A DNA stretch of 64,000 bases. It comes from Myxococcota bacterium (GTDB taxonomy: Bacteria > Myxococcota > B64-G9). A program made the translations under genes and the position numbers. The stretch is from NCBI GenBank assembly GCA_022710975.1, contig JAKLGA010000009.1, forward strand, positions 117,547 to 181,546, given 5' to 3'. Below the pieces are notes generated by a model. It had not been told where the DNA came from. It saw nothing but the letters and a program-made list of their open reading frames with translations, and searched no databases. Within the stretch, counting starts at the first letter, position 1. Each line of letters opens with the position of its first letter. This document shows positions 1,754-29,215 of the stretch, one piece after another.

Positions 1754-1881
1754 GCCCCGCACCGGCCCGGCCCGGGTCGAGCGCTCGCTCTCCGGCACCC
1801 CGGCCTGGGCGCGCTGCCCGGGGTGGCAAATCTCCGCCTGGCGGGTTAAGGTCCTGCAGGGGAGGAGAGAGGGCGCCCGAC

Positions 1882-4530
1882 ATGCTCGCTTCCAGGTTGA
1901 CGACCCTCCTGGGGATCCTCGGAGTCGCCGCGAGCCTGGGCAGCTGCGGCCCCGAGGGCCCCACCCTCCACGAGCGGCTGGGCCCGCTCCGGCCCGCGCA
2001 GCTCGACCGCCAGGGCCGGCCCATCCTGCCCATCTGGGCCACCGAGCAGGAGCGCCTGGCCGCGCTGCGCGCCGCCCCGCCGCCCGCCGATGATCTCAAG
2101 GCCGCGCCCGCCGCGGGCTACCGGGTGCCGGCGGAGTACGAGCCGACGCAGGCCGTGGTCATGACCTACACCTCCTACGACTACCTGCTGGACGAGATCG
2201 CGCCCTACGTGGCCTCGGCCGGGGCCGAGGTCTGGATGGTGGGCGGTCCGGCCAGCATGTCCGGCGTGCCAGCCGCCCAGTACCGCCGGCTCGCCTGGCC
2301 CTACGACTCGGTCTGGTCGCGGGACTACGGCCCGGTCGGCATCGACGAGGCCAGCCACACGCTCGGCATCGTGGATCCCACCTACCGCCACTACGCCAGC
2401 CGGCCGGACGACGACGACATCCCCTGCCGGGTGGCCGTGGAGGCGGGCGCCGCCTGCCACACGACCACGCTCATCCTGGACGGCGGCAACTACATGACCG
2501 ACGGCCGGGGCTCGGTCTTCCTGACCCGGCGCATCTACGACTGGAACAGCCAGCTCAGCGAGGCCCAGGTGAACCAGCTGCTGCGGGACTACCTGGGCGC
2601 CCAGAGCCTGCACGTCTTCGACTACGCCGTGGACGAGTACGGCGATCCGGCCGACGGCACCGGGCACATCGACATGTTCGCCAAGCTGCTGCCCGGTTGC
2701 GTGGTGCTGGTGGTCGACACGGACGACGCGCCCTTCGCCGCGGTGTGCGACGCCGCGGCCGCGACCTTCGCCGGCCTCGAGTGCGTGCCCGGCCAGAACT
2801 ACCAGGTCCTGCGCGTGCCGGGCTGGTACCAGTCGGACGGCTGGTGGGGGGTCTGGTACACGTACACGAACTCGCTCATCATCAACGACACCGTCCTGGT
2901 CCCGTCCTACTCGGGCGGCCAGGACGCAGCGGCTCGCGCCGTCTACCAGCAGGCCCTGCCGGGCTACACCGTCGCGCTGCTCAACACCGACGAGCCCATC
3001 CTGAGCGGCGGCTCCATCCACTGCATCACCAAGGAGATCCCGTTCATCGAGGACCTGGGCTGCGCCACGCCGGCCGACTGCGATCTGCCCCAGGTCGACC
3101 AGCACGCCTGCACGGCCGGGGTGTGCGGCATCGTCAGCTGCGACCCGGGCTACGGCGACTGCGACGGCGCGGCGGACGACGGCTGCGAGCAGGACCTGTG
3201 GCAGGTCGCCGCCTGCGGCACGAGCTGCGCCCGGCTGGTGAACTGCCCGAGCGAGCTGCAGCACGCCGCGGGCGAGGGCTGCGCGGCCGGCGCCTGCGAC
3301 TACGCCAGCTGCGACGCGGGCTACGGCGACTGCGACGGGGAGCGCGAGGACGGCTGCGAGGCGAACCTGTGGCAGCCCGGGGCCTGCGGCACGACCTGCG
3401 CCCAGCGGGTCGACTGCGCGGCCCTGGTGCAGCACGCCACCGGGCTCGCCTGCGCGGCGGGAGCCTGCGACTACGGGGCCTGCGCCGCGCTGTACGGCGA
3501 CTGCGACGGCGACCGGACCAACGGCTGCGAGCTGGATCTCCGCCTGGACGAGGCGCACTGCGGCGGCTGCCTGACGAGCTGCGCGGACGGCGAGGTGTGC
3601 GAGGGCGGCCTGTGCGAGGTCCCGGCCTGCCCCGCGGGCCTCGCGGACTGCGACGGCCAGCCGGGCGACGGCTGCGAGGTCCAGCTCGGCACCGACGCGG
3701 ACTGCGCCGGCTGCGGGGACGACTGCCGGGATCGGTTCGCCCACGCCACCGGCGCGTGCGTCCAGGGCGCCTGCGCGCTGGGCCCGTGCGCGGCCGGCTA
3801 CGGCGACTGCGACGGGAGCGCGGCGGACGGCTGCGAGAGCGAGCACGCCACGGACGAGGCCCACTGCGGCGACTGTCAGACCGCCTGCGCGGCGGGCCAG
3901 ACCTGCGAGGGCGGCCTGTGCCGCGACGAGCCCTGCCCCGCGGGTCTCGAGGACTGCGATGGCCAGCCGGGCAACGGCTGCGAGGTCCAGCTCGGCACCG
4001 ACGCGGACTGCGCCGGCTGCGGGGACGACTGCCGGGGCCTCTTTCCCCACGGGCAGGGCGCCTGCCTGGCCGGCGCCTGCGCGCTGAGCGCCTGCGAGCC
4101 GGGCTTCGCCGACTGCGACCTCGAACCGGCCTCGGGCTGCGAGCGCTCGCTCGCCGAGGCCGGCACCTGCGGGGCCTGCAACCGCGCCTGCGCCGCGGGG
4201 GAGAGCTGCGTGCGCTCGGGCGCGAGCTGGACCTGCCAGGGCGGCTGCGCCGACGGCGACGGCGACGGGTTCGCCGACCAGGCCTGCGGCGGTGCCGACT
4301 GCAACGACCTGGCGCCCGGCGTGAACCCGGACGCCGCGGAGCAGTGCAACCTGGCCGACGACGACTGCGACGGGCAGACGGACGAGGACGGGGTGTGCGA
4401 CCGCCAGCCGGACGATGCCAGCGGCTGCGGCTGCGCGGCGTCGGGCGAAGGCGGTCCGGGCGCGGAGCTCGGCCTGCTGCTGCTCGTCGGCCTGGCGGCC
4501 GTGGGCCGGCGGCGGACGGGAGAGAGCTGA
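1882..4530 (+). CDS. Lipoprotein with agmatine deiminase / Porphyromonas-type peptidyl-arginine deiminase (PAD_porph) catalytic domain, ~6 cysteine-rich repeats, C-terminal MYXO-CTERM
   Basis: ATG at 1882 with lipobox LGSCG. Family motifs WSRDYGP, GGNYMTDGRG, GHIDMF and C-terminal GGSIHCITKE (catalytic Cys). Repeated CxxGYGDCDGxxxDGCE units. C-terminus GCGCAASGEGG + hydrophobic stretch + RRR resembles the MYXO-CTERM sorting signal. Confidence 0.8.
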   Translation: MLASRLTTLLGILGVAASLGSCGPEGPTLHERLGPLRPAQLDRQGRPILPIWATEQERLAALRAAPPPADDLKAAPAAGYRVPAEYEPTQAVVMTYTSYDYLLDEIAPYVASAGAEVWMVGGPASMSGVPAAQYRRLAWPYDSVWSRDYGPVGIDEASHTLGIVDPTYRHYASRPDDDDIPCRVAVEAGAACHTTTLILDGGNYMTDGRGSVFLTRRIYDWNSQLSEAQVNQLLRDYLGAQSLHVFDYAVDEYGDPADGTGHIDMFAKLLPGCVVLVVDTDDAPFAAVCDAAAATFAGLECVPGQNYQVLRVPGWYQSDGWWGVWYTYTNSLIINDTVLVPSYSGGQDAAARAVYQQALPGYTVALLNTDEPILSGGSIHCITKEIPFIEDLGCATPADCDLPQVDQHACTAGVCGIVSCDPGYGDCDGAADDGCEQDLWQVAACGTSCARLVNCPSELQHAAGEGCAAGACDYASCDAGYGDCDGEREDGCEANLWQPGACGTTCAQRVDCAALVQHATGLACAAGACDYGACAALYGDCDGDRTNGCELDLRLDEAHCGGCLTSCADGEVCEGGLCEVPACPAGLADCDGQPGDGCEVQLGTDADCAGCGDDCRDRFAHATGACVQGACALGPCAAGYGDCDGSAADGCESEHATDEAHCGDCQTACAAGQTCEGGLCRDEPCPAGLEDCDGQPGNGCEVQLGTDADCAGCGDDCRGLFPHGQGACLAGACALSACEPGFADCDLEPASGCERSLAEAGTCGACNRACAAGESCVRSGASWTCQGGCADGDGDGFADQACGGADCNDLAPGVNPDAAEQCNLADDDCDGQTDEDGVCDRQPDDASGCGCAASGEGGPGAELGLLLLVGLAAVGRRRTGES

Positions 4531-4602
4531 CGGAGCGGACCTGGCCCTTTGTTGCCAGCGCGGGCGGAATACCACAGAATGGGTCAGCCTCGGGAGGTGC
4601 GC

Positions 4603-5827: not shown

Positions 5828-7021
5828 GTGGATCGGCCGGCGTCTCTCGCGCTGCTCGTCGCCCTGCTCGGGGCCGGGTCCGTGGCCCGGGCCGACGGGC
5901 TGGCGTTCCGGGTGGAGGGCGGCCAGGCCGAGGTGCGGCCCACGGCCCAGCGGGCGGTCCTGTGGCTGCGGCGCGGGGTGTGGGAGCTCCACCTGCAGCC
6001 CGTGTTCGAGCGGGAGGCGGGCCGGGCGGCCTGGGTGGTGCCCTTCGCGGTGCGGCCCGAGGTGAGCCTGGGGAACCCCGACTTCCTCGACCAGCTCGAG
6101 CTGCTGACCGCGCCCGTGTTCCTCGAGGTGTGCCGGCCGGAGGAGGAGTCCTGCTTCGGCCAGGGCGGGAGCTCGGACACCGCCGGGGAGGTCCGCGCCG
6201 GGACGGCCGCGCCGGAGGTGTGGGAGCGCGGCCAGGTCGGGACGCTCGACTACGTGATCCTGTCCGCCAGGGACGGAGACGATCTCCTGGCCTGGCTGCG
6301 GGCCGAGGGGTACGCGGTGCCGAACACCGCCATCATCCCCGTGAGGGTCCTGGCCCGGGAGGGCGCCTTCTTCTTCGCCGCCCGGCTGTCCGCCGGCGTC
6401 GATCCGGACCTGCCGCTGCCGAGCCTGCGTTTCCTGCTGCCCGGCCTGCAGAACCCCGCCTACCCGCTGCGCCTGACGGCAGCCGGGGTCCCGGCCGGCG
6501 AGCACCTCGACCTCAGCCTGTGGGTGATCACCCCGCTGGGACAGGACTGGCTGCCCGCGGAGCGCCGCGTCGCCTCGCCGCCACCCGCGCTGGACGATGC
6601 GGCGGCCCTCGACGCGGCCCTGGGGGACATCTACCTGGAGGACCCGGACGGCCTGGCGCTGCTCTACAGCGCTTCGCCGCGGGAGACCGGCGGCTTCGAC
6701 GGCCAGGTGTGCGGCTGGCAGTACGGCTGCGTGGACTTCGCGGCGCTGGGCCTGGCGCGGCCCGACGCCTGGTGCCCGGAGCTGCAGCTCGTGCGGGACG
6801 ACGCCGCCTGGGTGCAGCGGTTCCAGGCGCGCCTGCACGCGACCGGGCTGACCACGGACCTGCGCCTGCGGCCCCGGGCGGCGACCGAGTACCTCGACCG
6901 CGTGGAGCGCGTCTACCTGCGCTGGGTGTGCCGCGACGCCCAGGCCACGTCCGGCTGGTGGGTCCTGCTGGCCCTGGGGCTGGGGCTCGGGCTGCGGCGG
7001 CGCCGGCGCGCTGGCCCTTGA
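5828..7021 (+). CDS. Exported hypothetical protein, tandem paralog of 4603..5808
   Basis: GTG start 20 nt after the previous stop. Same conserved N-terminal blocks. C-terminus CRDAQATSGWWVLLALGLGLGLRRRRRAGP. Confidence 0.6.
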   Translation: MDRPASLALLVALLGAGSVARADGLAFRVEGGQAEVRPTAQRAVLWLRRGVWELHLQPVFEREAGRAAWVVPFAVRPEVSLGNPDFLDQLELLTAPVFLEVCRPEEESCFGQGGSSDTAGEVRAGTAAPEVWERGQVGTLDYVILSARDGDDLLAWLRAEGYAVPNTAIIPVRVLAREGAFFFAARLSAGVDPDLPLPSLRFLLPGLQNPAYPLRLTAAGVPAGEHLDLSLWVITPLGQDWLPAERRVASPPPALDDAAALDAALGDIYLEDPDGLALLYSASPRETGGFDGQVCGWQYGCVDFAALGLARPDAWCPELQLVRDDAAWVQRFQARLHATGLTTDLRLRPRAATEYLDRVERVYLRWVCRDAQATSGWWVLLALGLGLGLRRRRRAGP

Positions 7022-10171: not shown

Positions 10172-10933
10172 TCAGAAGCGGCGATCGCGCAGGAACGGCT
10201 GGCGGGCGCGGACCTCGGCCACCCGGGCCGGCTCGAGCTCGGCCAGCAGCAGGCCCTCCTGGGCGCCGCCCGCGGCCAGGGGCTCGCCCAGCGGGCCATA
10301 GATGGCCGAGCCGCCCGCGTAGGTCAGCCCGCCGCCCTGGCCCACCCGGTTGACCCCCACCAGGCAGCACTGGTTCTCCACCGCCCGGGCCGGCAGCAGC
10401 GTGTCCCAGGCGCGCTGGCGCGTGTCGGGCCAGGAGGCGATCACCAGCATCAGCCAGCACTCCTCGGCCACCAGGCGGAAGAGCTCCGGGAAGCGCAGGT
10501 CGTAGCACACGAAGGCGGAGGCGCGGCCGCCGCCGAGCGGGAAGGTGACCGGCCCCGGACCGGGCTCGTGCTGGCGATCCTCCCCGGCGTAGCCGAACAG
10601 GTGGCTCTTGACGTAGGTGGCCTGGAGCTCGCCGTCCGGGCCCACCAGCCTGGCCGCGTTTCGCCCGCGGCCGGCCGCGCCGGCGAGCACCAGCCCGCCC
10701 AGCACCGCGAGCCCGTGGCGCCGGGCCAGGGCTCGCAGGAAGGCCGTGGTCGGCCCGTCGTCCGCCTCGGCGGTGAAGGCCGGGTTCAGCGAGAAGCCGG
10801 TGGCGAACATCTCCGGCAGCACCAGCAGCTCGGCCCCCGCCGCCCGGGCGCGTGCGGCGAAGCCCTCCACCCGGGCGTAGTTGGCCTGGCGATCCTCCCA
10901 GGCCACCTCGAGCTGCAGCGCGGCCAGCTTCAT
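10172..10933 (-). CDS. Carbon-nitrogen hydrolase family protein (omega-amidase/Nit2-like)
   Basis: MKLAALQLE...LLVLPEMF...CYDLRFPE (E-K-C triad context). Start overlaps the stop of the upstream aminotransferase (ATGA). Confidence 0.8.
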   Translation of the reverse strand: MKLAALQLEVAWEDRQANYARVEGFAARARAAGAELLVLPEMFATGFSLNPAFTAEADDGPTTAFLRALARRHGLAVLGGLVLAGAAGRGRNAARLVGPDGELQATYVKSHLFGYAGEDRQHEPGPGPVTFPLGGGRASAFVCYDLRFPELFRLVAEECWLMLVIASWPDTRQRAWDTLLPARAVENQCCLVGVNRVGQGGGLTYAGGSAIYGPLGEPLAAGGAQEGLLLAELEPARVAEVRARQPFLRDRRF

Positions 10934-12099
10934 GACCGGCGCCAGCGCCGCAGACGGGCGATGGCCTCCTCCAGGGTGTCGTCCCGCTTGCAGAAGGCCA
11001 GGCGCACCTGATCCCGGCCCCCGCGCCGCTCCTGGTAGAACACGGAGAAGGGGATGGCGGCGACCCCGGCCTGGGCGGCCAGCCGGCGGCAGAACTCGAG
11101 ATCGTCCGTGGCCCCCAGGCCCCCGATGCGCCAGGTGGCGTAGTAGGTGCCGGCGGGCCGGCTCACCTCCAGGCCGAGCTCGGTCAGGGCGTCGCACAGC
11201 CGCGCGCGCCGCCGGGTGTAGGCCTCGAGCAGCTCCCGGTAGTAGTCGTCCGCGAAGCCCAGCCCCACGGCCATGGCGCGCTGCAGGGGGCCCGGGGTGC
11301 AGAACGTCAGGAACTGGTGGGCGGCGCGCACCGCGGCCGTGAGCGGCGGCGCGGCCACGGCGTAGCCCACCTTCCAGCCGGTCATGGAGAAGGTCTTGGC
11401 CGTGGAGGAGATGACGATGCTCGCCTCGCGCAGGCCCGGCACCTCGAGCAGGCTCACGTGCCGGCGCCCGTCGTAGACCAGGTGCTCGTACACCTCGTCG
11501 CCGATGGCCACCGCCCCGTGCCGCTGGCACAGCTCACCCAGGAAGCGGAGCTCCTCGGCCGAGTACACCTTGCCGCACGGGTTCTGGGGGTTGTTCACCA
11601 GGACGGCCCGGGTGCGGGGGTTGAAGGCCCGCTCCAGCGCCCGCTGATCCAGCTCGAAACCCGGGCCCTGCAGCGGGACGCACACCGGCCGCGCCCCGGC
11701 CCGCGCCACCATGGCCGGGTACAGGTCGTAGAAGGGCTCGAGCAGGATCACCTCGTCGCCCGGGTCGAGCAGCCCGAGCAGCGCCGAGGCCAGCCCCTCG
11801 GTGGCCCCGGCGGTCACCGTCACCTCGCGCTCGGGGTCCACCTCCAGGCCGTGGAAGCGCCGGAGCTTGGCCGCCACCGCCTGGCGCAGCTCGGGCACGC
11901 CGGGGCTGGGGGCGTACTGGTTGGGGCCCCGCAGGAGGTCCTCGGCCGCCAGGCGGCGGAGCTCCTCGGGGCCGTCGAAGTCCGGGAAGCCCTGGGACAG
12001 GTTGACCGCTCCCAGCCGGTTGGCGAGCTGGGTCATCTCGGTGAAGATGGAGGTGCCGAACGGGGCCAGGCTGGCGCTCACCTGTCGCTTGGGATCCAT
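10930..12099 (-). CDS. PLP-dependent aminotransferase class I/II (methionine/glutamine transaminase, YbdL-like)
   Basis: Full-length class-I aminotransferase fold: NLSQGFPDF, PxGxPELR, NNPQNPCGKVY, SSTAKTFSMTGWKVGY (Schiff-base Lys). Confidence 0.85.
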   Translation of the reverse strand: MDPKRQVSASLAPFGTSIFTEMTQLANRLGAVNLSQGFPDFDGPEELRRLAAEDLLRGPNQYAPSPGVPELRQAVAAKLRRFHGLEVDPEREVTVTAGATEGLASALLGLLDPGDEVILLEPFYDLYPAMVARAGARPVCVPLQGPGFELDQRALERAFNPRTRAVLVNNPQNPCGKVYSAEELRFLGELCQRHGAVAIGDEVYEHLVYDGRRHVSLLEVPGLREASIVISSTAKTFSMTGWKVGYAVAAPPLTAAVRAAHQFLTFCTPGPLQRAMAVGLGFADDYYRELLEAYTRRRARLCDALTELGLEVSRPAGTYYATWRIGGLGATDDLEFCRRLAAQAGVAAIPFSVFYQERRGGRDQVRLAFCKRDDTLEEAIARLRRWRRS

Positions 12100-16666: not shown

Positions 16667-17713
16667 CTACTGGCAATCGGCCGGGCACCGCGTCGCGTTC
16701 TCGCCCTTCTTCGTGTTGCACACGCCGTCGCCGCAGCAGGCGCCCTTGCGCACGCAGTCCGCGGCGCAGGCGGCGCAGGTCTCGCCGCCGGTGCACACGC
16801 CGTTGCCGCACACCTCGCCCGTGGGCTCGCAGTCGGGGTCGGCGCCCGGGGCGCAGGCCGCGTTGCACACGCCGTTCGCGGAGCAGTCCGGGGCCGGGGT
16901 GTTGCCGGTGAAGGCGTTGATGTAGCTCTCGAAGGTGTCCGCGCGGCTGCTCACGCCGTAGTCCAGGCAGGCCGCGTCGCCGTAGCTGGTCATGCCGCCC
17001 ACGTACACGGTGCCGTTGCGGCTGACGAAGGCCGGGCCGCCCGAGTCGCCGGAGCAGGGGCCGCCCTCGGACAGGGGCTGGTAGTAGTAGAGCCGGTCGG
17101 TGCTCAGCAGGTGGTCCAGGGTGCCCACCACGTGCAGCTTGTCGCCGAAGGCGTACTGGGAACCGCTCTCGACCGTGCCGAAGCCGGCGAAGTCGAGCGC
17201 CAGGTGGCCTTCGTCCGCGGCGGTGAAGCCCAGGCTCTGGGGCAGGGCCGGGACCGGGCTGGCCACGTTCGCGGGCACCGCGCTGGTCAGGCGGGCGAGG
17301 GCGATGTCGTTGGCCATGGTGGTCGAGCTGTAGCCCGGGTGCACCGCGATCGCGGACACCATGTAGAAGTCGCTGTAGCTCAGGGTGCCGGCGTTGTACT
17401 CGCGGATCGAGCTCTGGCCCAGGTAGATGGCCAGGCCCGACGCGCGGGTGCCCTTGAGGCAGTGGGCCGCGGTCAGCACCACGTTCGGGGTGATCAGGGT
17501 GCCGGAGCAGAAGGGGGAGATGCTGATGCCCTGCCTGGAGTTCTGGTGCAGGGAGACCACCGCGTCGTACTCACCGCCCGAGGCGGGCGAGCCGTTGTAG
17601 ATCGCGTTCTGGTGCTTGACCAGGTTGTTCTCGGTGGTGAGGCCGTCACCACAGGCCTGGAAGGCCACCGCACCCACGAGCGCCAGCGCGACCAGCATCA
17701 GATTCCGCCGCAT
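16667..17713 (-). CDS. Secreted trypsin-like serine protease (S1 family) with Cys-rich C-terminal extension
   Basis: Signal peptide. TAAHC (His), DIALARL (Asp), GDSGGP (Ser). C-terminal CxxGxC-rich tail. Confidence 0.85.
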   Translation of the reverse strand: MRRNLMLVALALVGAVAFQACGDGLTTENNLVKHQNAIYNGSPASGGEYDAVVSLHQNSRQGISISPFCSGTLITPNVVLTAAHCLKGTRASGLAIYLGQSSIREYNAGTLSYSDFYMVSAIAVHPGYSSTTMANDIALARLTSAVPANVASPVPALPQSLGFTAADEGHLALDFAGFGTVESGSQYAFGDKLHVVGTLDHLLSTDRLYYYQPLSEGGPCSGDSGGPAFVSRNGTVYVGGMTSYGDAACLDYGVSSRADTFESYINAFTGNTPAPDCSANGVCNAACAPGADPDCEPTGEVCGNGVCTGGETCAACAADCVRKGACCGDGVCNTKKGENATRCPADCQ

Positions 17714-18047
17714 GAGACTCTCCTCCGTTCCGACCGTTTTCGAACTGTCCGACCCTAGACTTACCTTTTCCCGAAATCCAGAATTTTCTTGCCCCTGGTG
17801 CAGGGCGTCAATAGCCTACGGATACACGCCGTCACTTCAAGCCTCATGCCAGCCCCAGGCGCCCCGGCCAAGATCTCAATCCACTGAATTCATAGAGTAA
17901 TTTGCAGTGTAGGATGTTGTGCTCCGGGGTGATCCTGTAGCCTGAAATTGATCCTTCGAACGCTGGTGTTCTCTTATGGTTCTGAATTTACTATTGTTTA
18001 TTTCTTGTAGCCCGGTTTTCAAAACGGGGACGGAGTTGCTTTCAGAG

Positions 18048-21099: not shown

Positions 21100-24030
21100 A
21101 TGACATCGATGGCCGTGCGCCTGGGGCTGGTGGGCTGGCTCGTGTGTGTCCTGGCCGCGCTGCCGGCGCCCGTGGCGGCCCAGGCCGGGGGCACGACGCT
21201 CGACGCGGACGAGGCCGACGTGCAGTTCGAGCTCGGCAACGCCGCCTACAAGCGCAAGGACTTCCGCAGCGCCCTGTCCCACTACTTCGCCTCCAACCGC
21301 CTGGCGCCGAACCGCAACGTGGTCTACAACCTGGCCCGCTGCTTCGAGGCCCTGGGGCAGCACGTGGAGGCGTACCGCTACTACCAGGTGTTCGGCAGCG
21401 GCGCGCTGAAGGACGCGGAGCGCAAGGCGCTGGACGAGGCGCTGGCCCGCATGCGGCCTTTCGTGGCCTTGCTGCGCGTGGAGAGCCAGCCGCCGGGCGC
21501 GACCATCTTCCTCAACCGGCGGGAGCTCGGCTCCTACGGCCTGACCCCGGCCGTGCTGGCCGTGGCCCCGGGCACCTACCGGGTCCTGCTGGCGCGGGAC
21601 GGCCACCGCGACTTCGAGAGCGCGGCGGCGGTGGCGGCGGTGGGCCGGGAGGTGGCGGTGCGCGGGGAGCTGGCGCGCCTGGTGGGGCGGCTGCGCGTGC
21701 TGGGCGAGCCGGCCGGGGCCGAGGTGCGGGTGGAGGATCCGGCCGGGACCCTGGTGCGCGCGCTGCCCGCCGAGCTGGAGGTGAGCCCGGGCGCGGTCCG
21801 GGTGGTGATCACCCGCGAAGGCTTCCAGCCCCTGGAGCGCAGCGTGCGCATCGAGGTCGGACAGACCGAGAGCCTGGAGGTGAGCCTGGCGCCGCAGACC
21901 GGCACGCTGCTGGTCGAGAGCGCCGAGCGGGACGCGCTGATCCTGGTGGATGGGAAGCCCGCGGGCTTCACCCCGGCCGTGCTCGATCGGCTGCCGGTCG
22001 GCCGGCACGAGGTGGTCGTCCGCCAGGATGGCTTCCTGCCCTTCCGCACCGAGGTGGAGGTGGCCCCCGACGCGCGCGTGGTGGTGGAGGCCACGCTGCA
22101 GATCGTGGAGGACGTGGCCGCCGCCTCGCGCCTCCAAGAGAGCGTGCGCGACGCGCCCGCCTCGGTCAGCCTGATCCCGCGCCGCGAGCTGGAGGCCTTC
22201 GGCTTCTCGAGCGCCGCCGACGCCCTGACCGGCCAGCGGGGCGTGTACCTGACCGACGACGGCACCTACAAGTCGATCGGGCTGCGGGGCTACAGCCCCT
22301 TCGGGCAGTACGGCAACCGCCTGCTCGTCCAGCTGGACGGCCACTCGCTCAACGACGACTGGATCGGTTCGTCCTACATCGGCTTCGACCTGCTCAGCGA
22401 TCTCGGCGCGGTCGAGCGCCTCGAGCTGATCCGCGGCCCGGGCTCGGCCCTGTACGGCACCGGCGCCTTCTTCGGCGTGCTGAACCTGGTGTCCCCCCAG
22501 CGCACCCGGGAGGAGTACGTCTCGGGGGGGTTCGGCCTGGTCGGCCCGGGCACGCTGCGGGGGCGCGCCACGGGCAGCGCCTCCCTCGGCGAGGAGGCGG
22601 GCTTCTGGCTGAGCGCCGGCGGGCTGTACGGGCAGGGGCAGGACTACCGCTCGCCGGCCAGGGTGGGCTCGGCCGAGGCGCCGGACGGGGTGGCCCACGG
22701 GATGGGCGAGGCCGTGGCCGCCTCCGCGCTGGGCAAGGTCTTCTGGCGCGACCTGACCCTGCAGTTCTACCACCACCTGCGCGACAAGCAGGTGCCCAGC
22801 GCCTCCTTCGGCACCATCTTCGGCGACACCCGCACCCACAGCGACGACGCCCGCTCGTTCGTCGAGCTGCGCTACGAGCCCCGCTTCGGCGAGACGTTCC
22901 AGCTCCTCGGGCGCCTGTCCTACGATCACTACGGCTACGACGGCGCCTTCGCCTACGACGATCCGGACGCCGGCCTGGCCCGGGAGTTCTACCGCGGCGA
23001 CTGGACCACCCTGGAGCTGCGCGGGCTGGTCACCCCTGGCTACGGCCTGCGCCTGACGGTGGGCGGCGCGTTCGAGCAGCACTTCGCCAACCCGGGGGTG
23101 GGCGTGTACGGCGCCACCGGCGAGGTGTACTACCGCGAGCTGCACCCGTTCCAGACCTTCGCCGGCTACCTGGTGCTGGACTACGCCCCGCTCGACTGGC
23201 TGGCACTCTCGGCCGGGGCCCGCTTCGATGGCTCGCTGCTGTCCGACCTGCCCGACGAAGCCGGGGGCGTCGAGGACCGCTTCCTGTACTCGGTGAACCC
23301 CCGCCTGGCGGTGATCTTCAAGCCCGGCGCGGACGACACCCTGAAGCTGATGGCCGGCACCGCCTTCCGCGCCCCGTCCATCTACGAGCTGACCTACTGG
23401 GACGGGGGCCTGACCCAGGTGCAGAGCCCGGGGCTCGAGCCCGAGGGCATCTACACCGGCGAGCTGGAGTACACCCGCCGGCTGCCCGCGGGGTTCTCGA
23501 TCACCGCGGCGGTGTTCCTGAACTACATCCAGGAGCTGATCGCCCAGCGGGGCTCCGGTGACGAGAGCGACCCGCTGTACTACGTGAACCAGGACGAGGC
23601 GGTCTGGACGCTGGGCGGGGAGCTCGAGCTGCGGCGCGAGTTCCGCGAGGGCTGGATGCTGGGGCTGCAGTACTCCTACCAGCGCACCCGCGTGGACGGC
23701 CTGCTCGACGGCGCCGAGCTGCCCAACTCGCCCGAGCACCTGGCCGGGGTGCGGGCGGTGGTGCCGCTGGCCGGGCGCTACCTGCAGCTCGCCACCCGGC
23801 TGGCCGTGGAGGCGGGCCGGCTCGATCGCCAGGGCGGACGCACGGGCACGGCCGTGCTGTGGGACGCCACCCTGTCCGGGGAGCTCGACGCGTTCGGCCT
23901 GCGCTACGCGCTGGGCGCGCGCAACCTGCTCGACTGGCGCGTGGAGCATCCGGTGGGCGAGGACATCCTGGACCTCACCCAGCGCCAGCCCGGCCTGGGG
24001 CTGTTCCTCGATCTGTCCTGGGCGTACTAG
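21100..24030 (+). CDS. Outer-membrane TonB-dependent receptor-like protein with N-terminal tandem PEGA domains
   Basis: Signal peptide. Three or more PEGA-like units (PPGATIFLNRRELG, AGAEVRVEDPAG, ALILVDGKPAGFTPAVL). Plug-like region LIRGPGSALYGTGAFFGVLNLVS. Long beta-barrel-like C-terminus ending LDLSWAY. Confidence 0.7.
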   Translation: MTSMAVRLGLVGWLVCVLAALPAPVAAQAGGTTLDADEADVQFELGNAAYKRKDFRSALSHYFASNRLAPNRNVVYNLARCFEALGQHVEAYRYYQVFGSGALKDAERKALDEALARMRPFVALLRVESQPPGATIFLNRRELGSYGLTPAVLAVAPGTYRVLLARDGHRDFESAAAVAAVGREVAVRGELARLVGRLRVLGEPAGAEVRVEDPAGTLVRALPAELEVSPGAVRVVITREGFQPLERSVRIEVGQTESLEVSLAPQTGTLLVESAERDALILVDGKPAGFTPAVLDRLPVGRHEVVVRQDGFLPFRTEVEVAPDARVVVEATLQIVEDVAAASRLQESVRDAPASVSLIPRRELEAFGFSSAADALTGQRGVYLTDDGTYKSIGLRGYSPFGQYGNRLLVQLDGHSLNDDWIGSSYIGFDLLSDLGAVERLELIRGPGSALYGTGAFFGVLNLVSPQRTREEYVSGGFGLVGPGTLRGRATGSASLGEEAGFWLSAGGLYGQGQDYRSPARVGSAEAPDGVAHGMGEAVAASALGKVFWRDLTLQFYHHLRDKQVPSASFGTIFGDTRTHSDDARSFVELRYEPRFGETFQLLGRLSYDHYGYDGAFAYDDPDAGLAREFYRGDWTTLELRGLVTPGYGLRLTVGGAFEQHFANPGVGVYGATGEVYYRELHPFQTFAGYLVLDYAPLDWLALSAGARFDGSLLSDLPDEAGGVEDRFLYSVNPRLAVIFKPGADDTLKLMAGTAFRAPSIYELTYWDGGLTQVQSPGLEPEGIYTGELEYTRRLPAGFSITAAVFLNYIQELIAQRGSGDESDPLYYVNQDEAVWTLGGELELRREFREGWMLGLQYSYQRTRVDGLLDGAELPNSPEHLAGVRAVVPLAGRYLQLATRLAVEAGRLDRQGGRTGTAVLWDATLSGELDAFGLRYALGARNLLDWRVEHPVGEDILDLTQRQPGLGLFLDLSWAY

Positions 24031-24049: not shown

Positions 24050-25144
24050 TCAGTTGCAGCCGGCCGGAGCGCCGATCACGCCCTCGACGAACTCCATCAT
24101 CGAGAGCTTCTCGTTGTCGGGGATGTCCACGCCCTGGGCCACCCACACGCTGCCGTCCTGCTTGTTGATCGGGCCGTAGAACACGTCCCAGGTGCCGGCC
24201 ACGAGCTCGGCCTGCTTGGTGGCCACCTCGTCCCGGACGGCCTGCGTCACCGCGTCGTTGTAGGCGCCCACGGCCACGATGCCGTCCGCGATCGAGCCCC
24301 AGTAGCTGTGGCTGGTCCAGGTGCCGTCCTTGACCGCCTGCACGCGGCGCGAGTAGTAGGGGCCCCAGTGCCAGACGGCGCTGGTCAGGATGGCGGTGGG
24401 CACGAAGCTCAGCGTGTCCGAGTCATAGCCGATGGCCCAGGCGCCGGCGGCCGCGGCGCGCTCGGCGGTGGCGGTCGAGTCCTGGTGCTGCGCCAGGAGA
24501 TCGCAGCCGGCGGCCAGCAGCTCGTCGGCCGCGGCGGCCTCCAGGGTCGGATCGAACCAGGTGCAGGTCCAGCGCACCTCGACCGTGGCGGTCGGGTTCA
24601 CGCTGCGCACGCCCAGGGTGAAGGCGTTGAGCATGCGGATGACCTCGGGGATGGGGAAGGCCGCCACGTAGCCGATGCGGCCGTTCGTGGTCATGCGCCC
24701 GGCCACGATGCCGGTCAGGTAGCGGGCCTGGTACATGCGGCCGAAGTAGTTGGCCAGGTTCGTGCCGGCCTTGTAGCCCGAGCAGTGCTCGAACTTGACC
24801 TCGGGGAACTGCGCGGCCGCCGTCTCGGTGGGATCCATGTAGCCGAAGGAGGTGGTGAAGATGATGTCGTTGCCGTCCGCCACCAGATCTGCGAGCACCG
24901 GGCCGAGGGCCTCGGCGGTCTCGGCCACGCTGTCGACGTAGGTGGTCTCCACGTCGTCCACCTCGAGCTCCACCTGCAGCCGGCCCTGGTCGTGGGCGTA
25001 GGTCCAGCCCAGATCACCGGGCTGGCTGATGTACACCCAGGCCGCCTTGGTCGTGGTGTCCTCGTCTCCGCCGTCGTCGCAGGCCGCGATCAGGCCGCCG
25101 AACGCAAACACGCCCAGAACCACACCCCACATCTTGGAACGCAT
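24050..25144 (-). CDS. BMP-family (Med/PnrA-like) ABC substrate-binding lipoprotein
   Basis: Lipobox LIAAC. Conserved BMP-family layout. Confidence 0.8.
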   Translation of the reverse strand: MRSKMWGVVLGVFAFGGLIAACDDGGDEDTTTKAAWVYISQPGDLGWTYAHDQGRLQVELEVDDVETTYVDSVAETAEALGPVLADLVADGNDIIFTTSFGYMDPTETAAAQFPEVKFEHCSGYKAGTNLANYFGRMYQARYLTGIVAGRMTTNGRIGYVAAFPIPEVIRMLNAFTLGVRSVNPTATVEVRWTCTWFDPTLEAAAADELLAAGCDLLAQHQDSTATAERAAAAGAWAIGYDSDTLSFVPTAILTSAVWHWGPYYSRRVQAVKDGTWTSHSYWGSIADGIVAVGAYNDAVTQAVRDEVATKQAELVAGTWDVFYGPINKQDGSVWVAQGVDIPDNEKLSMMEFVEGVIGAPAGCN

Positions 25145-25170: not shown

Positions 25171-26397
25171 TTACTCGAGGGCTTCGATCCGGTCCTGCCG
25201 GATGGTCCATAGGTCCACACGCCCGTCCATCAGATCCCCCCGCTCGTCCATGTCGACCGTCCCCGTCGTCCCCTCGTAGTCGAGGTTCATCCCCTGAGCC
25301 GCCAGCTCCATGGCCTGCTCCAGATCGTTCCAGCCGAGCTGCTCTCCGGGCGCCGAGGCGACCTGGCCGACCTGGTCGCGGATCGCGGCGCCCGAGGGGG
25401 CCGCGCCGGACTCCTCGGCGGCCCGGGCCATGGCCAGCACCAGGACCATGGCCGCGTCGTAGTAGAAGTAGGCCGCGTTGAGCGGCGCCTCGCCCTCCCA
25501 GCGGCTGGCGAAGTCCTCGGCGAAGGCGTCGGTGATCGAGGCCTGCCCCAGCGCGGGCGCCACGCCCACCGCGCCGTCCAGGACGCCCGGCGGCACGTTG
25601 TCCAGGAACACGTCGGCCTTGAGCGCGGGCGCCAGGTAGAAGCGGGCCTGACCGCCGCGCACGCTCCACTCCTGGACGATCTGCGCCCCGGTGCTGGCGT
25701 AGGACATCAGCGCGATGGCGTCGGGCTTGGACTCCAGGATCGGGGTGAGCAGCCGGTTGAAGTCGGGCGGCACCCCGGGCTGGAAGGAGACCGAGGTCAG
25801 GGTCTGGATGTTGCGGCCGATGAGCTCGTTGACCAGGATGTTGTTCAGCCCCAGGCCGTACAGATCGCCGACGTAGATGATCTGGGCCAGGCGCACCCCG
25901 TCGGCCTGCATCCGTTCGGCCATGGCGCGGCCCAGCTCGCGGGCGGTGGGGCAGGTGCGGAACCAGAAGCCGTTGTCGGCCAGCGTGCTGAAGAAGGGCG
26001 AGGTCACTCCGCCCGAGATGACCACCACGTTGCGGGTGGCGGCCACGGGCGCGAGCTGCTTGCCCATCTCCTCGTCCTGGGGCCCGAGGATGGCCACCAC
26101 GCCCTCGTCCATCAGCTCCTGGGCGGCGTCGAAGCCGCGCCTGAGATCGGAGTGGGTGTCCTTGGTGACCAGCCACAGGGGCCGCCCGGCGATGCCGCCG
26201 GCCTCGTTGACCTGATCGAGGACCTGCAGGATGGCGCGCTCGATGTTGGCGCCCTCGGAGGCGATGTCCCCGGTGAAGGGCAGCAGCGCCCCCACCTTGA
26301 GGGCGTCCGCGGGAGGGCCTCCGGCCGGCTCCACGCAGCCCGCGGCCAGGAGGATGAGGCCAAGCGCCAGCCAGGCCGGGCAGCGTTCGGTGCTCAT
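25171..26397 (-). CDS. Periplasmic substrate-binding protein, type I (LivK-like / Peripla_BP_6)
   Basis: Lipobox LAAGC. LivJ/K-like fold motifs. Start 3 nt from the TBDR stop. Confidence 0.75.
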   Translation of the reverse strand: MSTERCPAWLALGLILLAAGCVEPAGGPPADALKVGALLPFTGDIASEGANIERAILQVLDQVNEAGGIAGRPLWLVTKDTHSDLRRGFDAAQELMDEGVVAILGPQDEEMGKQLAPVAATRNVVVISGGVTSPFFSTLADNGFWFRTCPTARELGRAMAERMQADGVRLAQIIYVGDLYGLGLNNILVNELIGRNIQTLTSVSFQPGVPPDFNRLLTPILESKPDAIALMSYASTGAQIVQEWSVRGGQARFYLAPALKADVFLDNVPPGVLDGAVGVAPALGQASITDAFAEDFASRWEGEAPLNAAYFYYDAAMVLVLAMARAAEESGAAPSGAAIRDQVGQVASAPGEQLGWNDLEQAMELAAQGMNLDYEGTTGTVDMDERGDLMDGRVDLWTIRQDRIEALE

Positions 26398-26399
26398 GG

Positions 26400-28568: not shown

Positions 28569-28726
28569 GCGCGCGTTCTCTCGGGGCAAGTGTTCATGTA
28601 CCGGACTTGGTGTATGCCAGGATCGCCCTTTTTGCAATACCTATCTTCAATCATTTCCGGAGACTGGTTCCAATTCTGGAGCCGAACGGGTAGCATCGGC
28701 TGTCGCCCACGCGGAGGTGGATTCCG

Positions 28727-29215
28727 GTGAGAGCAGCTCCCCTGGCGGGATTCTTCCTGGTGATGCTCCCTGGCCTGGCCCTGGCCGCTGATCCGGCGGC
28801 CGCACCGGTGCAGCAGCAGCACCGGCTGGTGACGCTCGAGCTCGACGGGCCAGCGTTGCGGGTCCTGGCCTCCCAGGTCGTCCCCCTGCCGTTGCCCAAG
28901 CGCCGGGGAGGGGAGGCGGTCGGCTCCGGCCACCCCTGGCGCGCCCGGCTGCTCGGCCCCGGAGGCGCGGTGCTGCACACCCTCGGCCTCGGCGATCCCA
29001 CCGAGCTGCGCGTGGAGCACGCCGACGACGCGGGCCGGATCCGCGCCCAGCGCGTCCGCCGGGAGGGCCCGGTGGTGTTCTGCCTGCGCCTGCCGCTGAC
29101 CGCAGGCCGGCTCGAGCTCCAGCGGCTCGATCCCGCCCGGCCGCGGGAGCGGCGGGCCCCGGAGGACGCCTGGCAGGGCGTCGGCGCGGTGGAGCTCCCG
29201 GGGGTGGCGCCGTGA
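28727..29215 (+). CDS. Secreted hypothetical protein
   Basis: RBS GGAGGTGG before GTG. Signal peptide. Stop overlaps the start of the M64 gene. Confidence 0.4.
   Translation: MRAAPLAGFFLVMLPGLALAADPAAAPVQQQHRLVTLELDGPALRVLASQVVPLPLPKRRGGEAVGSGHPWRARLLGPGGAVLHTLGLGDPTELRVEHADDAGRIRAQRVRREGPVVFCLRLPLTAGRLELQRLDPARPRERRAPEDAWQGVGAVELPGVAP

What the first reader, a model, noticed from the sequence alone, without database searches (positions are those of the whole stretch)
1882..4530. Agmatine deiminase/PAD_porph catalytic domain fused to Myxococcus-type Cys-rich repeats and a MYXO-CTERM sorting tail
The catalytic motifs (WSRDYGP, GGNxxxDGxG, HIDxF, C-terminal GGSIHCITKE) are intact, so the enzyme is probably active. 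It is preceded by a lipobox signal and followed by about six CxxGYGDCDG...DGCE repeats and a GCGC...hydrophobic...RRR tail. That predicts a cell-surface-displayed deiminase, analogous in logic to P. gingivalis PPAD, which is sorted by a C-terminal domain. I have not seen such a fusion described.
Basis: partly seen in the sequence, partly recalled or inferred. Interest (0 to 1): 0.55.

Follow-up and report, generated by a model that had tools for sequence, protein, structure and literature searches.

The report
Surface-tethered PPAD-like deiminase of a myxobacterium
This gene encodes an exported arginine-type deiminase whose closest studied relative is the protein-citrullinating enzyme of the gum pathogen Porphyromonas gingivalis, here mounted on a cysteine-rich stalk with a myxobacterial cell-surface sorting tag. 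The combination recurs in uncultured myxobacteria but has not been studied.

Summary
Window 1882-4530 (+) is one intact 882-aa ORF (GC3 0.97). It has a lipoprotein signal (Cys22), a PAD_porph catalytic domain (aa 81-387) with all catalytic residues, and seven (not six) Cys-rich repeats. A MopE-like unit and a MYXO-CTERM tag (above NCBIfam cut-off) follow.

Refinements:
- It is not an AguA-type agmatine deiminase: 80 bits against a cut-off of 382, no AguB nearby, and it is exported.
- By sequence and by predicted fold its nearest solved relative is PPAD, so the resemblance is homology, not only analogy.
- It belongs to an uncharacterised clade in which all 39 aligned members carry a signal peptide (motifs YRHxxxRxxDD and PADGTGHIDM). 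This clade is the next-nearest group to PPAD among the relatives fetched, after T9SS-sorted PPAD-like proteins of Ignavibacteria and Bacteroidota.
- The full fusion recurs in at least 12 other metagenomic Myxococcota proteins with 1-10 repeats, so it is a family, not a one-off or an assembly artefact.
- The repeats are not the TraA-type repeat. They are a common module of Myxococcota secreted proteins.

The substrate is unresolved. PPAD's carboxylate-binding Arg154 is kept, but the essential Arg152 is not positionally conserved. Verdict: new variant of known kinds, moderate interest.

The parts
1861..1873 (+). Shine-Dalgarno-like purine-rich stretch (GGAGGAGAGAGGG) 8-20 nt upstream of the ATG
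   Evidence: Read directly from the sequence.
1882..4530 (+). Complete ORF: 882 aa plus TGA. The mature protein (Cys22 to Cys851) is about 85 kDa with predicted pI about 4.05.
   Evidence: GC3 is 0.97 along the whole ORF.
1882..1947 (+). Lipoprotein-type signal peptide MLASRLTTLLGILGVAASLGS|C, with the lipobox Cys at aa 22
   Evidence: It fits a PROSITE-style lipobox rule: R5, no charged residue in the h-region, then S-L-G-S-C. The Cys is at the same alignment column in 24 of 39 family members.
1948..2121 (+). N-terminal linker (aa 23-40, low pLDDT) and the conserved LP(N/I)WAT-x-EE segment (aa 49-57) that packs on the catalytic domain
   Evidence: P50 is invariant and W52 nearly invariant in A1. 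pLDDT is 55-59 for aa 21-40 and 85 or more from aa 41.
2122..3042 (+). PAD_porph catalytic domain (aa 81-387), a five-bladed alpha/beta propeller. Catalytic residues: Cys381 (nt 3022-3024), His262 (2665-2667), Asn330, Asp148, Asp264, Trp145, Gly202.
   Evidence: Pfam. AF2 pLDDT 90.9. Foldseek best match is PPAD. Residue mapping. All these residues are invariant in 39/39 family members.
2383..2418 (+). Clade-specific loop Y168-R169-H170-Y-A-S-R174-P-D-D-D-D, homologous to PPAD's substrate-carboxylate loop Y-N-R152-P-R154-P-N-D-D
   Evidence: R174 is present in 38/39 members; R169 and H170 in 35/39 each.
3046..4251 (+). Cys-rich region: a cap (aa 389-419) plus seven repeat units of 49-57 aa (nt 3139-3309, 3310-3480, 3481-3627, 3628-3786, 3787-3933, 3934-4092, 4093-4251)
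   Evidence: TRF finds period 171 x2.5 and period 306 x2.0. AF2 predicts beta-hairpin modules with pLDDT about 80-94 and pTM 0.38.
4297..4386 (+). MopE-type 'putative metal-binding motif' unit (aa 806-835)
   Evidence: Pfam PF11617, 32 bits against a cut-off of 27.
4420..4527 (+). MYXO-CTERM sorting signal: SGCGC signature (Cys849, Cys851), spacer, hydrophobic LGLLLLVGLAAVG, then RRR
   Evidence: TIGR03901 scores 23.3 bits against a cut-off of 20. TIGR03382 scores 15.6 against 15.85. Sequence.

Best explanation
The gene encodes a catalytically competent cysteine hydrolase of guanidino groups (a deiminase). It belongs to a secreted, PPAD-related clade of the PAD_porph family and is built for display on the cell surface of a Myxococcota bacterium.

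Inferred path:
1. Sec export through an N-terminal lipoprotein signal, with Cys22 acylated (inferred).
2. The C-terminal MYXO-CTERM helix holds the protein in the inner membrane.
3. One of the two signature cysteines (Cys849/Cys851) is lipidated and the tail is cut off by myxosortase MrtX.
4. The type II secretion system moves the folded protein to the outer surface. Steps 2-4 are by analogy with TraA.

Once there, the roughly 400-aa run of seven disulfide-rich beta-hairpin repeats plus a MopE-like unit links the C-terminal anchor to the propeller head, presumably as a stalk or spacer.

The head uses Cys381/His262/Asn330, with Asp148 and Asp264 gripping the guanidinium, to convert a guanidino group to a ureido group and release ammonia. 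My preferred substrate class is extracellular arginine bearing a free alpha-carboxylate, meaning C-terminal Arg of peptides or proteins as for PPAD, or free L-Arg, rather than agmatine.

Shown here: the ORF, the domains, catalytic-residue conservation, closest homology to PPAD, recurrence of the fusion, and the exported nature of every family member examined. Inferred: lipidation, MrtX/T2SS routing, the stalk role and the substrate.

Sub-probabilities: active deiminase about 0.85; exported and envelope-associated about 0.9; surface display through MYXO-CTERM about 0.65; peptidyl-Arg substrate about 0.35.
For: Catalytic domain:
- PAD_porph E 7.8e-40.
- The AF2 model has pLDDT 90.9. Its best Foldseek matches are seven PPAD structures (E about 2e-27, 30% identity, rmsd 2.8-3.1 A), ahead of agmatine deiminases (E about 5e-23, 15-24% identity).
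- phmmer against the PDB gives PPAD 1e-28 and AgDI 6e-17.
- The PPAD residues shown essential by mutagenesis map to W145, D148, G202, H262, D264, N330 and C381: W127, D130, G182, H236, D238, N297, C351. All are invariant in 39/39 relatives.
- R154 maps to R174, present in 38/39.

Exported:
- All 39 aligned relatives have signal peptides. These are lipobox type in the Myxococcota-like branch and type I in Elusimicrobia.
- Two Cys pairs co-occur perfectly: 182/192 in 25 members with both and 14 with neither; 273/301 in 28 with both and 11 with neither. This is as expected for disulfides.

Sorting tag:
- TIGR03901 is above its cut-off.
- MYXO-CTERM, MrtX cleavage and T2SS-dependent surface display were shown for TraA.
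- The window holds another protein with a MYXO-CTERM-like tail, an M64 peptidase. One of the adjacent DUF2330 proteins scores just under the cut-off.

Recurrence:
- The same architecture occurs in P0002-5, 7, 9, 10, 16, 58, 121, 122 and 240, with 1-10 repeats.
- The locus of P0122 is syntenic with the window.

Sorting logic shared with PPAD:
- Relatives with PPAD's exact YNRPRPxDD loop carry T9SS C-terminal domains in 8 of the 10 scanned; the two without are Myxococcales proteins with other loop sequences.
- PPAD scores 132-182 bits against those relatives and 75-126 bits against this clade.
- hhalign between the two clades gives E 8.6e-78.

Not AguA:
- 79.7 and 81.7 bits against cut-offs of 381.8 and 483. 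The homologues score similarly.
- There is no AguB: the nearby CN_hydrolase scores 56 bits against a cut-off of 410 and matches YafV-like amidohydrolase best.
- No polyamine genes lie next to the homologues.
Against: - PPAD's Arg152, indispensable for its activity on C-terminal Arg, is not positionally conserved. phmmer aligns it with H170 and hhalign with the variable A172. The loop is two residues longer, and whether R169 or H170 substitutes cannot be told without coordinates.
- PPAD's Tyr233 is Gly259 here.
- There is no Ig-like domain after the catalytic domain and no T9SS domain.
- Having both an N-terminal lipobox and a C-terminal lipid-anchor tag is unusual. I could not check whether any of the 35 M. 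xanthus MYXO-CTERM proteins is also a lipoprotein, because that table is held only as an image.
- In the homologues the MYXO-CTERM model is sub-threshold or silent: 19.1 and 17.6 bits.
- No myxosortase or T2SS gene lies in the 64-kb window.
- No member of this clade has been assayed.
Confidence: 0.55

Rival explanations
1. It is an exported agmatine deiminase, as the public annotation 'agmatine deiminase family protein' implies. It would convert environmental or prey-derived agmatine to N-carbamoylputrescine at the cell surface.
For: - It is a member of PF04371, most of whose characterised members are agmatine deiminases.
- The acidic residue four positions before the catalytic His (D258, invariant) occupies the position of MtAIH Asp220, which binds the agmatine amine.
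- P0001 and many homologues are named this way by NCBI and JGI.
Against: - It fails both AguA models by about 300-400 bits.
- There is no AguB, putrescine carbamoyltransferase or carbamate kinase in the window or next to homologues.
- As far as I know, characterised agmatine deiminases are cytoplasmic enzymes (own knowledge); every examined member of this clade has a signal peptide.
- Sequence and fold are closer to PPAD.
- An acidic residue at His-4 is also present in PPAD (E232) and in the T9SS clade, so it does not discriminate.
Confidence: 0.2
2. It is a deiminase of another small guanidino compound, or of free L-arginine only. In that case it would be a nutrient or ammonia-scavenging ecto-enzyme rather than a protein modifier.
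For: - The substrate loop is remodelled relative to PPAD, with R152 not aligned and Y233 absent.
- The guanidino-modifying superfamily covers many substrates.
- The window also encodes TonB-dependent receptors and solute-binding proteins, though not adjacent to this gene.
Against: Nothing in the neighbourhood points to a specific small-molecule pathway. [quoted passage not shown]
Confidence: 0.2
3. The protein is an ordinary periplasm-facing lipoprotein, or stays in the inner membrane. On this reading the C-terminal tail is a plain membrane anchor rather than a processed MYXO-CTERM signal.
For: The lipobox is conserved across the Myxococcota-type branch, including members without any C-terminal tag. 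The TIGR03901 score is only 3 bits above its cut-off, and homologues fall below it.
Against: The tripartite GCGC/hydrophobic/RRR tail is conserved at the extreme C-terminus in 12 or more orthologues that differ widely elsewhere. The two non-adjacent cysteines match the described signature.
Confidence: 0.1
4. The fusion is an assembly chimera or a decaying gene.
For: Public short-read contigs break inside the repeat DNA (P0001 is partial; L006-L008 start inside the gene). The repeats are tandem duplications.
Against: The reading frame is intact with GC3 0.97 throughout. The same order of modules occurs in independent assemblies from JGI, ENA, NCBI and Logan.
Confidence: 0.02

Closest known systems
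PPAD, Porphyromonas gingivalis peptidylarginine deiminase (PDB 4YT9/4YTB/5AK7)
   Same: - Closest solved homologue: 30-32% identity over the whole catalytic domain, rmsd about 2.8 A to the model.
- Same catalytic residues (Cys/His/Asn plus two Asp, Trp, Gly).
- Arg154 is conserved.
- Both are secreted and carry a C-terminal sorting signal that is cleaved and replaced by a lipid-type surface anchor.
   Different: - Arg152 and Tyr233 are not conserved in position, and the loop is two residues longer.
- There is no Ig-like domain.
- The tag is MYXO-CTERM (myxosortase/T2SS) instead of a T9SS C-terminal domain (PorU, A-LPS).
- It has an extra lipoprotein signal and a 400-aa Cys-rich stalk.
- Its activity is untested.
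T9SS-sorted PPAD-like proteins of Ignavibacteria, Bacteroidota, Calditrichia and WOR-3 MAGs (loci L028-L088)
   Same: Secreted PAD_porph enzymes with a C-terminal extension and sorting domain. Profile-profile E is 8.6e-78.
   Different: They keep PPAD's exact YNRPRPxDD loop and end in Por_Secre_tail. The window protein has YRHYxxRPxDD and PADGTGHIDM and ends in MYXO-CTERM.
Agmatine deiminases / iminohydrolases (AguA; E. faecalis 2JER, M. truncatula 6NIB)
   Same: Same Pfam family, fold and catalytic core. An acidic residue lies four positions before the catalytic His.
   Different: - 15-24% identity.
- Fails the equivalog models.
- These are cytoplasmic enzymes with lid loops that close the site; the window protein is exported.
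- The pathway partners are absent here.
TraA and other MYXO-CTERM surface proteins of Myxococcus xanthus
   Same: Signal peptide, Cys-rich repeat stalk and MYXO-CTERM tail. Routing by MrtX and T2SS was demonstrated for TraA.
   Different: The head domain is different (an enzyme, not the PA14-like receptor). The TraA-type repeat model was not among the NCBIfam matches at E <= 0.1. No deiminase domain appears in the domain legend of the table of 35 M. xanthus MYXO-CTERM proteins.

Membership tests
PAD_porph (Pfam PF04371), guanidino-group modifying enzymes | Profile score above the gathering threshold | tested here: met
   137.5 bits against 25, full-length match 1-321/321.
PAD_porph (Pfam PF04371), guanidino-group modifying enzymes | Five-fold alpha/beta propeller fold | tested here: met
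   AF2 pLDDT 90.9. Foldseek probability is 1.00 to PPAD and to AgDI structures.
PAD_porph (Pfam PF04371), guanidino-group modifying enzymes | Catalytic Cys, His, two guanidinium-binding Asp, and Asn | tested here: met
   C381, H262, D148, D264 and N330, each invariant in 39/39 relatives.
Agmatine deiminase AguA (TIGR03380 / NF010070) | Equivalog HMM score above the curated cut-off | tested here: not met
   79.7 against 381.8, and 81.7 against 483. Ten homologues score 37-98 bits.
Agmatine deiminase AguA (TIGR03380 / NF010070) | Pathway context (AguB N-carbamoylputrescine amidase, or putrescine carbamoyltransferase and carbamate kinase) | tested here: not met
   The only CN_hydrolase (10172-10933, minus strand) scores 56 bits on TIGR03381 (cut-off 410) and matches YafV-like amidohydrolase best. 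None lies next to the homologues.
Agmatine deiminase AguA (TIGR03380 / NF010070) | Cytoplasmic enzyme without a signal peptide (own knowledge of characterised AgDIs) | tested here: not met
   A lipoprotein signal is present here, and signal peptides are present in all 39 relatives.
PPAD-type peptidylarginine deiminase | Closest homology to PPAD among characterised enzymes | tested here: met
PPAD-type peptidylarginine deiminase | Arg152 and Arg154 binding the substrate's C-terminal carboxylate | tested here: inconclusive
   R154 = R174 (38/39). R152 aligns with H170 or A172. R169 and H170 are conserved (35/39 each) in a loop two residues longer.
PPAD-type peptidylarginine deiminase | Tyr233 of the Michaelis loop, which blocks internal arginines | tested here: not met
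   The aligned residue is Gly259, within the invariant PADGTGH.
PPAD-type peptidylarginine deiminase | Ig-like domain and T9SS C-terminal domain after the catalytic domain | tested here: not met
   Cys-rich repeats start 7 residues after the catalytic domain. No Por_Secre_tail was found, whereas 8 of the 10 more distant relatives scanned have it.
PPAD-type peptidylarginine deiminase | Citrullination of C-terminal peptidyl-arginine | not testable with these tools
   Needs an enzyme assay.
MYXO-CTERM sorting signal (TIGR03901) | HMM score above the cut-off, at the extreme C-terminus | tested here: met
   23.3 bits against 20, aa 847-878 of 882.
MYXO-CTERM sorting signal (TIGR03901) | Tripartite design: Cys-containing signature, hydrophobic helix, Arg cluster; plus an N-terminal signal peptide | tested here: met
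   SGCGC, then LGLLLLVGLAAVG, then RRR. The signal peptide is shown. The design is as described.
MYXO-CTERM sorting signal (TIGR03901) | Host is a Myxococcota bacterium encoding myxosortase (MrtX/MrtC) and a T2SS | not testable with these tools
   The identical partial protein P0001 is from a 'Myxococcota bacterium' MAG. No CPBP or T2SS gene lies in the 64-kb window, and the rest of the genome is not available.
TraA-type Myxococcus cysteine-rich repeat (TIGR04201, accession from memory) | Match to the repeat model | tested here: not met
   It is not among the NCBIfam hits at E <= 0.1. The only repeat-type hit is a weak one to NF041328, MXAN_6577-like (22 bits against 100).
Bacterial lipoprotein | Lipobox after a positively charged n-region and hydrophobic h-region, with Cys at positions 15-35 | tested here: met
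   A PROSITE-style pattern (from memory) matches, with Cys22. Actual acylation is not testable here, and SignalP/LipoP were not available.

The most novel reading that the evidence does not exclude
This is a protein-citrullinating ecto-enzyme of a myxobacterium and would be the first PPAD-type peptidylarginine deiminase outside the Bacteroidota lineage. It would be held on the cell surface by the myxosortase/T2SS pathway and used to neutralise C-terminal arginines on proteins of prey, of kin, or of the cell itself. It would also show that one secreted enzyme lineage has been re-equipped with phylum-specific surface-sorting tags: a T9SS C-terminal domain in Bacteroidota and Ignavibacteria, MYXO-CTERM in Myxococcota.
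Probability: 0.3. Interest if true: 0.65.

Novelty: new variant of a known kind. Interest (0 to 1): 0.42.

Why it matters
PPAD is still described as a unique bacterial citrullinating enzyme (abstracts). It is studied mainly as a virulence factor linked to rheumatoid arthritis.

A related, uniformly secreted clade in environmental bacteria would give comparative material for two questions: what the ancestral, non-pathogenic role of such enzymes is, and what determines specificity for C-terminal arginine. The clade includes Myxococcota, Bdellovibrionota-type bacteria and Elusimicrobia, and here the enzyme is displayed through the recently solved myxosortase pathway.

It also adds an enzyme cargo with a clear colorimetric assay to the short list of MYXO-CTERM clients. 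That could be useful for studying the sorting pathway.

The practical annotation point is that 'agmatine deiminase family protein' is probably misleading for this clade.

Tried and rejected
- Conserved neighbourhood as a clue to function. Loci of P0005, P0002 and P0122 share nothing except in the closely related L089. The DUF2330 adjacency is therefore not a conserved system.
- A protease partner like gingipain. The trypsin-family lipoprotein at 16670-17815 has Gly, not Asp, at the S1 position 189 and lies 12 kb away. A Peptidase_C25 gene lies 8 kb from P0005, but this is a single case. I rejected both as evidence.
- AguB. The CN_hydrolase at 10172-10933 is YafV-like.
- Myxosortase or T2SS genes in the window. 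None were found.
- Fold of the repeat region. Foldseek against the PDB gave no match at E <= 0.001, only weak EGF/Notch/Pfs25-like resemblances.
- The His-4 acidic residue (D258) as an agmatine-amine binder. I dropped it as a discriminator because PPAD (E232) and the T9SS clade also have an acidic residue there.
- A residue-level alignment to agmatine deiminases. The PDB tool prints only the five best alignments, and all five are PPAD variants. The E. faecalis AgDI paper is not held.
- Structure coordinates are not exposed, so I could not see which residue fills the Arg152 position.
Full report
**1. What is in the sequence**

Window 1882-4530 (+) is a single ORF of 882 codons, from ATG to TGA. 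GC by codon position is 0.72/0.56/0.97, uniform over both halves, so it is real coding sequence and not a frame artefact of the 72-78% GC DNA. A purine-rich Shine-Dalgarno-like stretch sits 8-20 nt upstream. The longer GTG-initiated version (1540) would overlap the upstream HdrA-like gene (2-1753) and is not needed.

Pfam assigns aa 81-387 to PAD_porph (E 7.8e-40, full-length match) and aa 806-835 to the MopE-type motif PF11617. NCBIfam assigns aa 847-878 to MYXO-CTERM (23.3 bits, cut-off 20).

The N-terminus MLASRLTTLLGILGVAASLGS|C fits a lipobox rule with Cys22.

Between the catalytic domain and the tail there are seven, not six, units of C-x3-[YLF]-x-DCD-x6-GCE. Each has eight cysteines per 49-57 residues, and aa 389-882 contain 68 Cys in all. 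Units 1 and 2 resemble each other (63% protein identity). The pair 3+4 resembles the pair 5+6 (59% and 79%). Tandem Repeats Finder sees periods of 171 and 306 nt, so the array grew by recent tandem duplication.

**2. What the catalytic domain is**

It is not an AguA orthologue. The two NCBIfam agmatine-deiminase models give 80-82 bits against cut-offs of 382 and 483, and ten homologues behave the same way.

Against all PDB sequences, the best hits are the PPAD entries (E 1e-28, aligned end to end, aa 76-386). The agmatine deiminases follow at 6e-17 or worse, often only in part.

An AlphaFold2 model built on 39 relatives is confident (pLDDT 90.9, pTM 0.86). Foldseek ranks seven PPAD structures first (E about 2e-27, 30% identity, rmsd 2.8-3.1 A), then agmatine deiminases (E about 5e-23 and weaker, 15-24% identity, rmsd 3.0-4.5 A).

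I used the PPAD structural papers and the alignment offset. The residues shown by mutagenesis to be essential in PPAD map as follows: W127 to W145, D130 to D148, G182 to G202, H236 to H262, D238 to D264, N297 to N330 and C351 to C381. Each is invariant in all 39 aligned relatives. The enzyme therefore has everything needed for the Cys-thiouronium deiminase mechanism.

**3. The clade it belongs to**

The word-indexed search found 313 relatives. The exhaustive representative search found 167 clusters (50% identity) at E <= 1e-30 and 1948 at E <= 1e-10.

The close relatives (42-65% identity) come from these sources:
- Myxococcota MAGs and Pendulispora
- Oligoflexus, Silvanigrella and Bdellovibrio
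- Elusimicrobia
- one chytrid record

They share the motifs LPNWAT-x-EE, WxRDYGP, Y-R-H-x-x-x-R-x-x-D-D, DGGN, PADGTGHIDM, WYTYTNS and GGSIHC.

All 39 aligned members start with a signal peptide. It is lipobox type in the Myxococcota-like branch and type I in Elusimicrobia. Two cysteine pairs (182/192 and 273/301) are either both present or both absent in every sequence, as expected for disulfides. This looks like a uniformly exported clade.

More distant relatives (30-36% identity) occur in Ignavibacteria, Bacteroidota, Calditrichia, WOR-3 and Riflebacteria MAGs and in Ca. Uabimicrobium. Most carry PPAD's exact substrate loop, (V/I)D(W/F)xYNRPRPxDD. Eight of ten tested end in the T9SS C-terminal sorting domain, which is the PPAD architecture; the two that do not are Myxococcales proteins with other loop sequences.

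PPAD's catalytic domain scores 132-182 bits against those relatives and 75-126 bits against the window's clade. Profile-profile comparison of the two clades gives E 8.6e-78. Among the relatives fetched here, the window's clade is therefore the next-nearest group to PPAD after the T9SS clade. I could not root this with agmatine deiminases.

**4. The fusion is recurrent**

The complete arrangement is lipobox, PAD_porph, Cys repeats, MopE unit, then a GCGC-hydrophobic-RRR tail. It is found in P0002, 3, 4, 5, 7, 9, 10, 16, 58, 121, 122 and 240. These come from independent JGI, ENA, NCBI and Logan assemblies, with 1-10 repeat units.

P0122 is 60% identical over the full length. Its locus is syntenic with the window: Hdr-like genes upstream, and DUF2330, APH, a methyltransferase, a CN_hydrolase and an aminotransferase downstream.

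Other clade members carry different C-terminal modules instead: PKD plus a proprotein-convertase P-domain, a lamin-tail domain, or PKD plus a MYXO-CTERM-like tail (P0012). The head is therefore a cassette that has been combined with several display modules.

Short-read assemblies break within the repeat DNA (P0001 is partial; L006-L008 start inside the gene). This explains why full-length copies are rare in databases, and it argues against a chimera only because long contigs show the same module order.

**5. The repeat region**

More than 1000 proteins, nearly all unnamed and from Myxococcota/Polyangiales MAGs, match it. All 118 newly listed ones contain at least two units. Most have lipoprotein-like N-termini, and few have a MYXO-CTERM-type tail. 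Their partner domains include Stig1, discoidin and fibrinogen-C. It is a general extracellular module of this phylum.

The TraA-type repeat model does not match. The only repeat-type hit is a weak one to the MXAN_6577-like model.

AF2 predicts strings of two-stranded beta-hairpin modules with good local confidence (pLDDT about 80-94) but pTM 0.38. This points to beads without a fixed mutual orientation. There is no significant structural neighbour in the PDB, and the weak matches are tandem EGF-like rods. A spacer or stalk role is the most economical reading, but it is inference.

**6. Sorting**

MYXO-CTERM has a Cys-containing signature (often two non-adjacent Cys), a hydrophobic helix and an Arg cluster. 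For TraA it is cleaved by the CPBP-family myxosortase MrtX and is needed for T2SS-dependent cell-surface anchoring. Lipidation of the Cys is proposed, not proven.

The window's tail, SGCGCAASGEGGPGAE-LGLLLLVGLAAVG-RRR-TGES, fits this description.

The window contains another protein with such a tail, a Peptidase_M64 (28792-31764). The two DUF2330 genes directly downstream end in Cys-TM-RRR tails, one scoring 19.0 bits against the cut-off of 20.

No myxosortase or T2SS gene is in the window, so host competence could not be checked.

The simultaneous presence of a conserved lipobox would give the mature protein a lipid at each end. This is unusual and untested.

**7. Substrate**

This is the weak point. 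In PPAD, Arg152 (indispensable) and Arg154 hold the C-terminal carboxylate and the preceding carbonyl, and Tyr233 closes the site. Agmatine deiminases have no listed equivalents of these residues (legend of Fig. 5).

In the window protein, Arg154 corresponds to Arg174 (38/39). The loop is two residues longer, and Arg152 falls opposite His170 (phmmer) or the variable Ala172 (hhalign). Arg169 and His170, conserved in 35/39, might take over. Tyr233 is replaced by Gly259.

The invariant Asp258, four residues before the catalytic His, matches the agmatine-amine ligand Asp220 of the Medicago enzyme. An acidic residue is also present there in PPAD and in the T9SS clade, so it does not discriminate.

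Four observations make a carboxylate-bearing arginine substrate (peptide C-termini or free Arg) more likely than agmatine:
- Every examined member of the clade is exported.
- The clade is related to PPAD.
- One of the two arginines is retained.
- Polyamine-pathway partners are absent.

I put peptidyl-Arg at only about 0.35, agmatine at about 0.2, and other substrates or free Arg only at about 0.2. The rest is unknown.

**8. Comparison with what is known, and novelty**

Each part is a known kind: PAD_porph, MopE motif, MYXO-CTERM and lipobox. The combination is not described in the papers I could search. The myxosortase papers and their supplement do not mention a deiminase, and the domain legend for the 35 M. 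xanthus MYXO-CTERM proteins contains none.

[quoted passage not shown] The wide distribution of PPAD-like proteins is therefore not itself new, although reviews still call PPAD unique.

I rate the finding as a new variant of known kinds. It is a real, recurrent and uncharacterised architecture, and it makes a testable prediction: a myxosortase-sorted surface deiminase, possibly a citrullinating one. It does not reveal a new mechanism. Interest 0.42.

Noticed in passing
window 4549 (or 4603)-5808 and 5828-7021, + strand: Two DUF2330 paralogues lie immediately downstream (19-20 bp gaps). Each has a signal peptide and a C-terminal Cys...hydrophobic...RRR tail. The second scores 19.0 bits on MYXO-CTERM (cut-off 20). 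A DUF2330 gene also follows the orthologue in L089, but not in more distant loci. A promoter-like site, TTGCCA-17-CAGAAT, lies at 4552-4580.
   Followed up: partly
window 28792-31764, + strand: A Peptidase_M64 protein ends in GGCGCGAGTGQAPGALLSVLLGWLWVRRRPRA. By eye this is a second MYXO-CTERM-type tail in the window, but the NCBIfam scan reported no family for it at E <= 0.01.
   Followed up: partly
loci L028-L088 (e.g. L037:7938-9650, L055:7917-9641, L080:7971-10583): PAD_porph proteins of Ignavibacteria, Bacteroidota, Calditrichia, WOR-3 and Riflebacteria MAGs carry PPAD's exact YNRPRPxDD loop. Eight of ten tested also carry a T9SS C-terminal sorting domain. The PPAD architecture is therefore common outside Porphyromonas, although reviews still call PPAD unique.
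   Followed up: partly
L001:20169-22121 (minus strand), 8 kb from the deiminase P0005 at L001:10001-12121: A 1389-aa Peptidase_C25 (gingipain family) protein and an S9 peptidase lie near one orthologue. This recalls the gingipain-PPAD partnership, but it is a single case and is not seen in the window.
   Followed up: no
window 3102-4119; loci L006-L008; protein P0001: Public short-read contigs end or start inside the tandemly duplicated repeat DNA (periods 171 and 306 nt). Full-length copies of this gene are therefore under-represented, and database versions are truncated.
   Followed up: partly
window 16670-17815, minus strand: A trypsin-family lipoprotein (lipobox AFQAC) with its own C-terminal Cys-rich tail. 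Its S1 position 189 is Gly, so it is not Arg/Lys-specific.
   Followed up: partly
window 10172-10933 and 10930-12099, minus strand: A YafV-like CN_hydrolase (135 bits on PRK10438, below its cut-off of 249) is paired with a class I/II aminotransferase. This looks like an omega-amidase/transaminase pair. It is syntenic in L089 and is not AguB.
   Followed up: partly
protein P0087: A 46%-identical clade member is deposited under the chytrid fungus Globomyces sp. JEL0801. This is either contamination of that assembly or a horizontal transfer.
   Followed up: no
Searches (L025, L018, L083; Oligoflexus, Pendulispora): Several carriers of the clade belong to lineages that I recall as predatory (own knowledge, not checked here): Myxococcota, Bdellovibrio, Silvanigrella, Oligoflexus and the phagocytic planctomycete Ca. 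Uabimicrobium amorphum. Elusimicrobia and Ignavibacteria carry it too, so the association is only suggestive.
   Followed up: no
window 21100-24027, + strand: A TonB-dependent receptor has an N-terminal CarboxypepD_reg domain and two PEGA domains. A second TonB-dependent receptor is at 26403-28640, and two solute-binding proteins (24053-25102 and 25174-26400, minus strand) lie between them.
   Followed up: no
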